From Escherichia coli (GTDB lineage Bacteria; Pseudomonadota; Gammaproteobacteria; Enterobacterales; Enterobacteriaceae), in the NCBI RefSeq assembly GCF_003991155.1, contig NZ_CP031293.1: 64,000 nucleotides of DNA; one strand, 5' to 3'. Position numbers: made by a program. This document shows, in pieces, positions 25,701 to 28,700 of the stretch (positions are counted from its first letter, which is position 1; each line of letters starts with the position of its first letter).

Positions 25701-28700
25701 CAGGTAAACTGTTTGTCATCACGTTTATCGGTCGTTCCCGCTACGCGGTTAAGAGATTCTTGATCTGCCCAGTCGTAACGACCGCCCAGGGTGACCAGCA
25801 CTTTATCCCACTGCGCCTGATCCTGAACATAAACGCCCGTTTGCTTCTGCTTATTCAGAATGCGGTACGGACCGGAGTTATCCGGGTCTTTCGCATTGAA
25901 GTCGAAATCGGTATTCACCGGATTGTACAGATCGAGCAGTGGCACAGAGTCGTCGTAACCAAACCAGGCGTTGATGTCATTACGCATACGCATAAAGTCG
26001 ACACCGGTCAGCAGAGTGTGGTCGATATCGCCAGTGGCAAACTTGCTCTGCAACTGGGTATCAACGGAGAAGTTTTGCAGCTTCTCATCATCAACGACGT
26101 ATTTACGTGCCAGATAATGGCCTTTATCCGCTGGCGCTAATGCTGCACACTGTTTGCTGTAAGCATTCGCCGGATCGGAGCAGACGCCGTAACCATAAAC
26201 GCTGTTTTGCGAGGTTTTGTTTTCAGCAAAGCGCAGGTTCTGACGCACAGTAAAGGTGTCGTTAAATTCGTGATCGAAGCTGTAGCCCACCATCTTCTCA
26301 TTACGAGAATAGGTGTTGTTCTTCGCCCCTTCATTAAAGTCTGTCGGCAGACGCTTACCGTTCGGCAGCGGCTCAACGGTTCCCTCTTTCGGCAACCAGC
26401 CGTAATAACCGGTTTCCGGTTCGTTCTGGAAGTAAGAAAGGAAAGTGAAATTGGTTTTATCATCCGGGCGCCAGGTGAACGCTGGAGCAATAGCATAACG
26501 CTGCTCTTCTGCCCCCTTCTGCTGAGCATTGGCTGAACGCGCAATACCAGTCAGACGATAAGAGTAAACGCCGTCATCATCCAGCGCATCACTGAAGTCA
26601 AAACCAGTCTGGAACAGGCTGTCAGTACCGGCTTTAAACTGAATTTCTTTCAGCGGTTCTGTAGTCGGGCGCTTGCTGACCATGTTCAACAGGCCGCCAG
26701 GGCTGCTTTTCCCGTACAGCACGGATACCGGACCACGCATGATTTCAGCGCGCTCCAGCATATACGGATCGATAACTGCATCGTTATAGAAGTTGCCCTG
26801 CATCTTCAGGCCATTCAGATAGTTGTTCTGGCTTTGGCCGTCAGCGGCGAATCCGCGGATGATCAGGTAATCGTAAGTGTTGGATGCGCCACGAGTTCCC
26901 ACGGCAACGCCAGGAGTGTAGCTAAGAGCTTCTTTTACCGACTTCGGCTGATGCAGCGCCATCTCTTCGGCGGTCACAACAGAAATAGACTGTGGCACTT
27001 TTTGAATCGGCGTATCGGTTTTAGTGCCGGTAGCTGACTGTCGCGCCGCAATAGTTGCAGCCGGCCCCCATGCGCTTTCTTGCGGCGCAGGTGCAGCGGT
27101 AACGGTGATAGTGTCTTCTTTCGGTTCAACCGCTGCCTGTGCATAAACAGACATGCCGCTAACCGCTGTGGCTACTACAACTGCGATTTTACGCAGTGAG
27201 TGTTTTGGCTGAGCAGTTTTGGAACGCGCCATTGGTATATCTCTGATGTAAAGTGAATGATAACGTAAACGAGAATGATTATTATAAAGATAAGATAATA
27301 TTCGAAACGCTGGCGGGTTCGCAAGCGGTACGCAATCTGAGCGTTCCTGAAGGGTTAATAAACAACCAGATGAAAAGAAAGGGTTAATACTTTGGGTGGG
27401 ATGTTATTTTACCGGATGGCTACTCGCCATCCGGTATGTCACGCTTAGGCGTTAATTACTCCCAAACATATCCTTGATCCAACCGGCTACACCGTCGCTG
27501 TCTTTCTGCTCTTGCTGAGCAGGTTGCTGTTGCGGCTGTTGCTGCGGCTGAGAAGACTGATCAAACGGATTGCCTGACGGTTGCTGCTGCATCTCACTCT
27601 GCTGGCACAGCGATTGCGGATCGCTGGTCCAGACCGGCAAGACACGCATACCACCGCTGCAAACAAAGTTGCCGTCGTAGTCCACGCCCATATCTGCAAT
27701 ATCTTCTGGCGGAACAAGATTCAGCGGTGTTGGCGTCTGGTTAGCCAGATAACGCTGATAAATCGACATTGCCCCGCTGGCTCCATACAGTTTGGTCGGT
27801 TGGTTGTTATCACGGCCTACCCAGGTGATGGTCACCGTGCTGCCGTCAATGCCCGCAAACCAGGTATCTACGTTATTGTTGGTAGTCCCTGTTTTCCCTG
27901 CCAGATGCAGGTTCGGGTATTTCGCCCCAAGCTGACGCCCCGTACCACGTTGTACCACCTGCTGCATGGTCCATAGTGTCAGATATGCCGCCTGCGCCGG
28001 AACAGCGCGTTCTGCCTGCGGGAAACTCTGATACAGCACCTTGCCATCTTCCGCGATTACCGAACGCAGCGCAGAAAGTGGTGCACGGTTACCGCCGCTG
28101 GCGATGGTCTGGAAAGCCTGCGCCACTTCGATTGGCGTTAAGTTCAACGCCCCCAGCAGCATTGCCGGAACCGGATGCAGCTGATCTTTCGGTACGCCCA
28201 GTTTAATCCAGGTCTCCGTAACCGCAGGCAGCCCCAGCGCCATCCCCAGATTCACCGTCGGCACGTTCATCGAACGGGTCAACGCATCCACCAGCATCAC
28301 TCTGCCACTTTCGCTATAACGACGGTCATCGTTCTGCGGTGACCAGACCTGGCCATTCGGCTGACGCAGCGCGATGGGCGCATCGGCAATCCACGTGTTC
28401 AGGCGATAGATTTTCGGCTGGCTTAAGGCAGTCAGATAAGTCGCTGGTTTTGCAAGGGAACCAATCGAACGACGCGCCTGCATCGCACGGTTGTAGCCCG
28501 CAAACTGCGGCTCAGAACCTCCAACCATCGCACGAACTTCACCACTAAAGCGGTCGACGACCACAATCGCGGTTTCAAGATCGCTCAACTTACGCTGTTT
28601 CTTCAGTGCCGGAATGCCTTCCACGGCGGCTTTTTCTGCCGCGTCCTGGGCCACCGAGTCAAAGGTAGTGAAGATCTTCACGCCGGAGAGATCTTTTACC

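What the first reader, a model, noticed from the sequence alone, without database searches (positions are those of the whole stretch)
27403..27429. Perfect 11-bp-stem inverted repeat between mrcB and fhuA
TACCGGATGGC-tactc-GCCATCCGGTA lies 23 bp downstream of the mrcB stop and upstream of the fhuA promoter. It has no T-tract on either strand, so it is not a classical intrinsic terminator; it may be an RNA stability element, a REP-like sequence or a protein binding site insulating fhuA from mrcB read-through.
Basis: seen in the sequence. Interest (0 to 1): 0.25.

Follow-up and report, generated by a model that had tools for sequence, protein, structure and literature searches.

The report
REP-like hairpin ending mrcB mRNA
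A real, strongly conserved 11-bp hairpin sits just after the mrcB gene of E. coli; it most likely caps and protects the end of the mrcB messenger RNA, a known and ordinary kind of element, not a new regulatory device.

Summary
The inverted repeat is real, but it lies at window 27410-27436, not 27403-27429. It is 15 nt, not 23, past the mrcB stop, and both genes are on the minus strand. It is far beyond chance (0.12 such repeats expected per shuffled window; RNA -21.7 kcal/mol, z -5.9). No U-tract follows it on either strand. Both arms are unchanged in at least 4734 of the 4849 E. coli genomes that have the locus, and in three other Escherichia species. The loop occurs in five versions. The 40 nt after it are C-rich and G-poor (12 C, 1 G), like a Rho loading site. 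A twin with identical arms after ygiC, and two sibling CCGGAT-core hairpins in this window, all have mapped RNA 3' ends 3-4 nt past the stem and Rho-dependent termination 100-215 nt downstream (Adams 2021). At the same position Enterobacter and relatives have classical terminators, and Citrobacter amalonaticus has a REP pair (BIME). The hairpin aligns to a REP core but lacks GTAG, the bulge and high copy number. Best reading: a REP-related protective 3' stem-loop of a Rho-terminated mrcB transcript. Caveat: no 3' end or Rho region was reported at this hairpin itself. Ordinary; low interest.

The parts
27426..27436 (-). 5' arm of the hairpin in the mrcB-sense RNA (UACCGGAUGGC)
   Evidence: Perfect complement of 27410-27420. 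Unchanged in >=4734 of 4849 E. coli genomes and in 3 other Escherichia species.
27421..27425 (-). Loop (GAGUA in this strain); the polymorphic part
   Evidence: Five loop versions across E. coli: GAGTA 399 genomes, GAGTT 3495, GAGCT 474, GAATT 366, plus GAGCA, which was seen in one fetched genome.
27410..27420 (-). 3' arm of the hairpin in the mrcB-sense RNA (GCCAUCCGGUA)
   Evidence: By analogy with the twin and sibling hairpins, the predicted steady-state 3' end lies 3-4 nt beyond, at about window 27406-27407 (K-12 about 167309-167310).
27437..27451 (-). 15-nt spacer between the mrcB stop codon and the stem
   Evidence: It varies among strains at 4 positions.
27452..29986 (-). mrcB (PBP1b) coding sequence; stop TAA at 27454-27452
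   Evidence: identical to the representative of a 9588-member E. coli MrcB cluster; K-12 annotation.
27332..27409 (-). C-rich, G-poor tract directly 3' of the hairpin (putative Rho loading region); core 27370-27409
   Evidence: First 40 nt have 12 C and 1 G. The 78-nt window has 21 C and 9 G, a C/G ratio at the 99.3rd percentile of all 78-nt windows on both strands. Its function is inferred from Dar & Sorek 2018.
27295..27324 (-). fhuA promoter-like site (TTGCGA-18-TATTAT), 85 nt downstream of the hairpin in the direction of transcription
   Evidence: a consensus match only. The region is conserved in Citrobacter and Enterobacter.
24989..27232 (-). fhuA coding sequence
17848..17874 (.). Sibling U-less CCGGAT-core hairpin between the converging genes yadS and erpA
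   Evidence: K-12 Term-seq 3' ends at 176994/176995(+), 3-4 nt past the stem; Rho region at 177151(+).
54072..54094 (.). Sibling U-less CCGGAT-core hairpin between the converging genes can and hpt
   Evidence: K-12 Term-seq 3' ends at 141973(-) and 142003(+), 4 nt past the stem on each strand; Rho region at 141870(-).

Best explanation
The hairpin is the 3'-terminal stem-loop of the mrcB messenger RNA, and in sequence it is a REP-related palindrome. Proposed mechanism: RNA polymerase transcribes through the hairpin, because no U-tract follows it. Rho loads on the unstructured C-rich, G-poor RNA immediately downstream and terminates before or around the Fur-controlled fhuA promoter. 3'-to-5' exonucleases (PNPase, RNase II) then trim the transcript back to the stable stem, which becomes the steady-state 3' end and protects mrcB mRNA. 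Together these steps would keep mrcB read-through out of fhuA. Shown: the structure, its strong conservation against a variable loop and flanks, the downstream C>G composition, the behaviour of the twin and sibling hairpins in published 3'-end and Rho data, and the fact that relatives carry terminators or a BIME at the same position. Inferred: that this particular hairpin marks an RNA end, and that Rho acts here.
For: (1) Stable perfect hairpin 15 nt after the stop, with no U-tract. (2) Selection on the stem: 0 of 22 arm columns vary against 53 of 219 intergenic columns in 8 Escherichia sequences (hypergeometric P = 0.0016), while 3 of 5 loop positions vary. The arms are exact in >=4734 of 4849 E. 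coli genomes across four loop haplotypes, and a fifth loop variant also has intact arms. (3) Downstream tract of 12 C and 1 G in 40 nt; the 78-nt C/G ratio is at the 99.3rd percentile. This matches the rut placement reported just downstream of protective stem-loops (PMC6061677). (4) The twin with identical 11-nt arms after ygiC has a Term-seq 'primary' 3' end at K-12 3181617, 3 nt past the stem, and a bicyclomycin-sensitive Rho region at 3181832. The two sibling CCGGAT hairpins of this window (can/hpt, erpA/yadS) have 3' ends 3-4 nt past the stem and Rho regions 100-160 nt downstream (PMC7815308 supplements). (5) The position is a conserved 'transcript-end slot'. Enterobacter cloacae and three metagenomic relatives (MrcB 90-92% identical) have unrelated canonical terminators (GC stem plus a T-rich run) right after the mrcB stop. 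Citrobacter amalonaticus has a BIME there. E. coli strains with a fimbrial island have a different U-less 10-bp hairpin there. (6) A ygiC allele changes A to G in one arm only, which keeps a G.U pair in RNA but makes a mismatch in DNA. This points to RNA-level constraint for this hairpin type.
Against: No 3' end at K-12 16729x-16731x and no entry labelled mrcB appear in the uncut Term-seq table of Adams et al. 2021. No Rho termination region is listed on the + strand between 152074 and 173376. Nothing was found in the held supplements of two other studies. This may reflect low mrcB expression, or masking by the fhuA promoter inside the 800-nt comparison window, but that is an excuse, not evidence. 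No structural covariation is available for this hairpin because its arms never vary. Perfect palindromes can also be kept perfect by templated repair rather than by selection.
Confidence: 0.6

Rival explanations
1. Neutral relic of a REP/BIME insertion: a decayed or 'perfected' REP with no current role, kept perfect by intrastrand templated repair or by recent common ancestry.
For: The core aligns end to end with the REP consensus if the 2-nt bulge and part of the apical region are removed. A full BIME occupies the orthologous site in C. amalonaticus. There are three CCGGAT...ATCCGG hairpins in the window against 0.09 expected. No transcript end is reported at this hairpin.
Against: The arms are invariant across >=4734 genomes and four Escherichia species, while the loop and both flanks are polymorphic. 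Relatives keep some terminator-type hairpin at exactly this position. The twin and the siblings demonstrably mark RNA ends.
Confidence: 0.15
2. A weak, non-canonical intrinsic terminator: the hairpin itself releases some polymerases without a U-tract, perhaps helped by NusA or NusG.
For: The hairpin has the size, GC content and energy of terminator stems. The same stem sequence serves as a classical terminator, with T-runs, in many unrelated bacteria. Dar & Sorek note that mixed or inefficient intrinsic cases may exist.
Against: Only 1 U in the 8 nt after the stem (AAAAUAAC), so the defining U-tract is absent. In established knowledge of E. coli RNA polymerase, the U-tract is needed for pausing and hybrid weakening.
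Confidence: 0.1
3. [quoted passage not shown] This could coexist with the main explanation.
For: The spacer is exactly 15 nt. [quoted passage not shown] 2015 in PMC12306157. The twin lies 7 nt from the ygiC stop.
Against: The spacing is at the very edge of the reported limit. Relatives place their terminator stems at various distances. No data here bear on translation.
Confidence: 0.1
4. A double-stranded DNA site for a dimeric protein (a regulator of fhuA, or a recombination or insertion target for the fimbrial island).
For: A perfect palindrome. It lies at the edge of the segment (window 27395-27451) that is replaced in the ~570 genomes carrying the fimbrial island. The twin locus is also an island junction.
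Against: Spacer length differs between the twins (5 vs 4 nt) and the loop sequence is free to vary. The twin lies between two converging stop codons with no promoter nearby. Neither island junction retains the hairpin. The site is 85 nt upstream of the fhuA -35. The G.U-compatible variant breaks DNA symmetry.
Confidence: 0.04

Closest known systems
[quoted passage not shown]
   Same: A stable GC-rich stem-loop directly after the gene, with no U-rich tail and a C-over-G bias just downstream. The twin and sibling hairpins show the expected 3' ends and downstream Rho regions.
   Different: For this hairpin itself, no 3' end and no bicyclomycin-sensitive region is reported in the tables I could read.
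REP / BIME elements (y, z1, z2 REPs of E. coli; PMC8266576, PMC12306157)
   Same: Extragenic, in a transcribed 3' region. It shares the CCGGAT(G)GCG...GCC..ATCCGG core. A true BIME sits at the orthologous site in Citrobacter amalonaticus.
   Different: No GTAG/CTAC tetranucleotide next to the stem, a perfect rather than bulged palindrome, 27 nt, and two copies per genome instead of hundreds.
Canonical intrinsic (Rho-independent) terminators
   Same: Same stem-loop size and energy, and the same position as the true terminators after mrcB in Enterobacter and relatives.
   Different: The U-tract is missing: AAAAUAAC follows the stem.
REPs within 15 nt of a stop codon that lower translation (Liang, Rudd & Deutscher 2015, as cited in PMC12306157)
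   Same: Stable structure 15 nt from the mrcB stop codon.
   Different: Not a canonical REP, and the effect on translation is untested.

Membership tests
Intrinsic (Rho-independent) terminator | GC-rich stem-loop of about 5-12 bp with a short loop | tested here: met
   11-bp stem, 5-nt loop, -21.7 kcal/mol
Intrinsic (Rho-independent) terminator | U-rich tract of about 7-8 nt immediately 3' of the stem | tested here: not met
   Sense strand AAAAUAAC (1 U in 8); plus strand UGUCACGC. Not called by the terminator scan.
REP / BIME | Conserved GTAG (CTAC) tetranucleotide adjoining the palindrome | tested here: not met
   The flanks are GUGACA / AAAAUA. A GTAG occurs only inside the loop of this strain and is not conserved (K-12 has GAGTTG). 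Definition taken from PMC8266576.
REP / BIME | Imperfect palindrome with the conserved bulge (y, z1, z2 types, 29-37 nt) | tested here: not met
   Perfect 11-bp stem, 27 nt in all. Alignment to the REP consensus needs two 2-nt gaps at the bulge positions.
REP / BIME | High copy number (hundreds per E. coli genome), often in inverted pairs | tested here: not met
   One place per genome for the exact 30-mer. The only other copy found is the ygiC/ygiD twin. No GTAG-type REP lies within 3 mismatches in the 64-kb window.
REP / BIME | Shared core sequence and extragenic, transcribed location | tested here: met
   CCGGAT--GGCG...GCC--ATCCGG aligns to the consensus quoted in PMC12306157 and to the C. 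amalonaticus REPs. CCGGAT..ATCCGG hairpins number 3 against 0.09 expected.
Protective 3' stem-loop of a Rho-dependent transcript | Stable stem-loop just after the gene, not followed by U-rich sequence | tested here: met
   class description
Protective 3' stem-loop of a Rho-dependent transcript | C-over-G (rut-like) sequence immediately downstream | tested here: met
   12 C and 1 G in the first 40 nt; 99.3rd percentile for the 78-nt C/G ratio
Protective 3' stem-loop of a Rho-dependent transcript | Steady-state RNA 3' end mapped a few nt past the stem | tested here: inconclusive
   Not listed for mrcB in Adams 2021 supplementary file 1. It is listed for the identical-arm twin (3181617) and both siblings. 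The Dar & Sorek tables are not held.
Protective 3' stem-loop of a Rho-dependent transcript | Bicyclomycin-sensitive read-through downstream | tested here: inconclusive
   No Rho region between 152074 and 173376(+) in Adams 2021 supplementary file 2. Such regions are present downstream of the twin and the siblings.
Stop-codon-proximal REP translational regulator | [quoted passage not shown] | tested here: met
   15-nt spacer; rule as quoted
Stop-codon-proximal REP translational regulator | Ribosome stalling or tmRNA-dependent reduction of the upstream protein | not testable with these tools
   Needs reporter or tagging experiments

The most novel reading that the evidence does not exclude
The TACCGGATGGC hairpins after mrcB and ygiC may form a small, unrecognised GTAG-less offshoot of REPs whose exact sequence, not just its pairing, is maintained. 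The 24 shared nucleotides are identical at two unlinked loci and invariant in thousands of genomes. Possible causes are a specific RNA- or DNA-binding factor or gene conversion between the copies. Both copies mark sites where genomic islands have been swapped in right after the stop codon.
Probability: 0.08. Interest if true: 0.4.

Novelty: new member of a known kind. Interest (0 to 1): 0.15.

Why it matters
It matters little beyond annotation. It gives mrcB (PBP1b) a defined likely 3' end. It also explains how iron-regulated fhuA could be insulated from the constitutive gene upstream without a classical terminator. The comparative picture is a tidy example of turnover at one orthologous gene junction: classical terminators, a BIME, and two different U-less hairpins fill the same slot in close relatives. 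This fits the published suggestion that Rho-independent and Rho-dependent ends interconvert easily. It also suggests that REP-derived hairpins are raw material for such ends.

Tried and rejected
Rfam scan of 1 kb around the site, permissive threshold: only chance-level hits with E > 5.

Searching for the arm in the window: no other copy.

Scan of 100,044 species genomes for ACCGGATGGC-N3-8-GCCATCCGGT: 103 loci. Most are unrelated bacteria where the same stem is an ordinary terminator with T-runs, so the arm sequence alone is not diagnostic. Only three hits are orthologous, all in Escherichia. E. coli itself was not returned although ATCC 11775 carries the hairpin, so absences in that scan are unreliable.

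Published 3'-end and termination tables: nothing at this hairpin in Adams 2021, TERMITe 2025 or Yan 2018. The supplements of Dar & Sorek 2018, Choe 2022, Gruenberger 2022 and a 2025 3'-seq comparison are not held. Peters 2012 and Liang 2015 are not held. The RepRanger supplements hold no element list.

Full-text searches for mrcB + fhuA + terminator and for mrcB + bicyclomycin: nothing relevant.

The K-12 RefSeq record has no feature in the spacer.

A second predicted helix spanning the stop codon was rejected, because its pairs break without compensation among strains.

The 'third place' per genome in short-query BLAST is most simply the palindrome matching itself on the other strand plus the ygiC twin. 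This is inferred from scores and was not verified.

Full report
**Observation.**
- Both genes lie on the minus strand: mrcB is 29986..27452 with stop TAA at 27454-27452, and fhuA is 27232..24989 (K-12 annotation).
- In the direction of transcription the order is: mrcB stop, 15 nt, hairpin, about 85 nt, fhuA promoter-like site (-35 at 27324, -10 ending at 27295), then the fhuA start.
- The stated 23-bp distance follows from the 7-nt coordinate shift; the true spacer is 15 nt.
- Perfect repeats of this size are expected 0.12 times per shuffled window.
- As RNA the stem-loop folds at -21.7 kcal/mol, z = -5.9.
- On the mrcB-sense strand the stem is followed by AAAAUAACAUCC, and on the other strand by UGUCACGC. 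So there is no U-tract, and the terminator scan does not call it.
- Rfam has nothing here.

**Conservation.**
- The mrcB-fhuA spacer matches in 5421 of 5426 complete E. coli genomes, and 4849 carry the hairpin segment.
- Exact 30-mers that differ only in the loop account for 399 (GAGTA), 3495 (GAGTT), 474 (GAGCT) and 366 (GAATT) genomes. That is 4734 of 4849 with both arms unchanged.
- A fifth loop, GAGCA, also has intact arms in the one genome fetched from the remaining classes.
- I aligned five E. coli strains with E. whittamii and two unnamed Escherichia species. Of 219 intergenic columns, 53 vary. Three of the five loop columns vary and none of the 22 arm columns do (hypergeometric P = 0.0016).
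- The stem is therefore kept while the loop and the immediate flanks drift.

**What lies downstream.** The 40 nt after the stem contain 12 C and 1 G. The 78-nt window has a C/G ratio at the 99.3rd percentile of the whole 64-kb window, both strands. Dar & Sorek (PMC6061677) showed three things for E. coli Rho-dependent transcripts:
- they end, at steady state, immediately after stable stem-loops that lack a U-tail;
- these stems protect against PNPase and RNase II;
- C-over-G sequence, where Rho loads, lies just downstream.

The anatomy here fits that class.

**Relatives of the hairpin within E. coli.**
- A twin with identical 11-nt arms (loop ACTC) lies between the converging genes ygiC and ygiD. 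Its exact 30-mer is present in 2117 genomes.
- The window holds two further perfect hairpins with the same CCGGAT...ATCCGG core. One is between can and hpt (54072-54094) and one between yadS and erpA (17848-17874). Neither has a U-tract.
- Three such hairpins were found against 0.09 expected.
- The uncut supplementary tables of Adams et al. 2021 (PMC7815308) list Term-seq 3' ends 3-4 nt past each of these stems:

| Hairpin | Term-seq 3' end(s), K-12 | Rho (bicyclomycin-sensitive) region |
|---|---|---|
| ygiC twin | 3181617(+) | 3181832(+) |
| can / hpt | 141973(-) and 142003(+) | 141870(-) |
| erpA / yadS | 176994/176995(+) | 177151(+) |

- The Rho regions lie 100-215 nt further downstream.
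- One ygiC allele has TGCCGGATGGC opposite an unchanged right arm. That is a G.U pair in RNA but a mismatch in DNA, which points to an RNA-level constraint.

**The same position in other species.**
- After the mrcB stop, Enterobacter cloacae and three metagenomic relatives (MrcB 90-92% identical) have unrelated canonical terminators, each a GC stem plus a T-rich run.
- Citrobacter amalonaticus has a BIME there, a REP and an inverted REP with CTAC/GTAG heads. Its outer tips, TGCCGGATGGCG...CGCCATCCGGCA, differ from the E. coli arms by one base each.
- About 570 E. coli genomes carry a 5.3-kb chaperone-usher fimbrial island between mrcB and fhuA. It replaces window 27395-27451. In those strains a different U-less 10-bp hairpin follows the stop.
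- The site is thus a conserved slot for a transcript-end hairpin, filled by different solutions in different lineages.

**REP or not.**
- The hairpin aligns end to end with the REP consensus (quoted in PMC12306157) if the 2-nt bulge and part of the apical region are removed.
- It lacks the GTAG tetranucleotide, which is essential for REP recognition in E. coli (PMC8266576). It is a perfect palindrome, and it has two copies rather than hundreds.
- The window has no GTAG-type REP.
- It is REP-related in sequence, probably REP-derived, but it is not a REP by the defining features.

**Weak point.** For this hairpin itself I found no mapped 3' end (K-12 16729x-16731x) and no Rho region. None is listed between 152074 and 173376 on the + strand in Adams et al., and nothing appears in two other data sets. 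Low mrcB expression, or the fhuA promoter lying inside the 800-nt comparison window, could hide it, but that remains to be shown. The functional assignment therefore rests on anatomy, conservation and close analogues.

**Verdict.**
The 'protein binding site' option has no support, because spacer length differs between the twins, the twin sits between two stop codons, and the loop is free to vary.
- The hairpin is a new instance of a known kind and of low interest. Its one side value is as a clear example of terminator turnover at one gene junction.

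Noticed in passing
L005 8385-13848 (E. coli strain 4/0); replaces window 27395-27451: About 570 of 5426 E. coli genomes carry a 5.3-kb four-gene chaperone-usher fimbrial island between mrcB and fhuA. The fhuA promoter region next to it is only about 85% identical to the window. In these strains mrcB is followed by a different U-less hairpin, CGCTCTCCGC-ttat-GCGGAGAGCG.
   Followed up: partly
L007 601-626; L120 575-620; L121 and L122 about 131-156: The twin hairpin locus ygiC/ygiD is also an island junction. About 1500 genomes have an insertion starting right after the ygiC stop (it includes an aryl-sulfate sulfotransferase gene). It carries yet another U-less hairpin, ATTGCCCCG-ataa-CGGGGCAAT. 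So both copies of the TACCGGATGGC hairpin sit at strain-variable insertion points.
   Followed up: partly
window 27350-27360 and 27379-27389: Direct repeat AAGGGTTAATA (TATTAACCCTT on the sense strand), two copies 29 bp apart, between the hairpin and the fhuA -35. Similar TTAACCC(T/C)T units recur at the same place in Citrobacter amalonaticus (2 copies) and Enterobacter cloacae (3 copies). It may be an unrecognised regulator site upstream of fhuA.
   Followed up: no
window 37522-37556: Perfect 15-bp AT-rich inverted repeat TTAAATTTACTTAAT-attga-ATTAAGTAAATTTAA, the longest perfect palindrome in the window. A second AT-rich one lies at 37364-37386. Their context was not examined.
   Followed up: no
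window 61133-61160, 12495-12522, 21244-21266: Other perfect 10-11-bp GC-rich hairpins (TCAGGCGGAGC, AACCCCTTCC, TGCCTCGCCC). Overall the window has 24 perfect-repeat calls of >=9 bp against 2.7 expected.
   Followed up: no
K-12 164636(+), about window 30080, 94 nt upstream of the mrcB start: Adams et al. 2021 list a Term-seq 3' end in the hrpB-mrcB spacer (the mrcB 5' region). It could be the hrpB terminator or premature termination ahead of mrcB.
   Followed up: no
K-12 254210(-) after pepD and 1190574(-) after purB (outside the window): Further mapped 3' ends at GCCGGATGGCG-type REP-like hairpins in the Adams 2021 table. This suggests a wider class of REP-core hairpins that define mRNA ends.
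   Followed up: no
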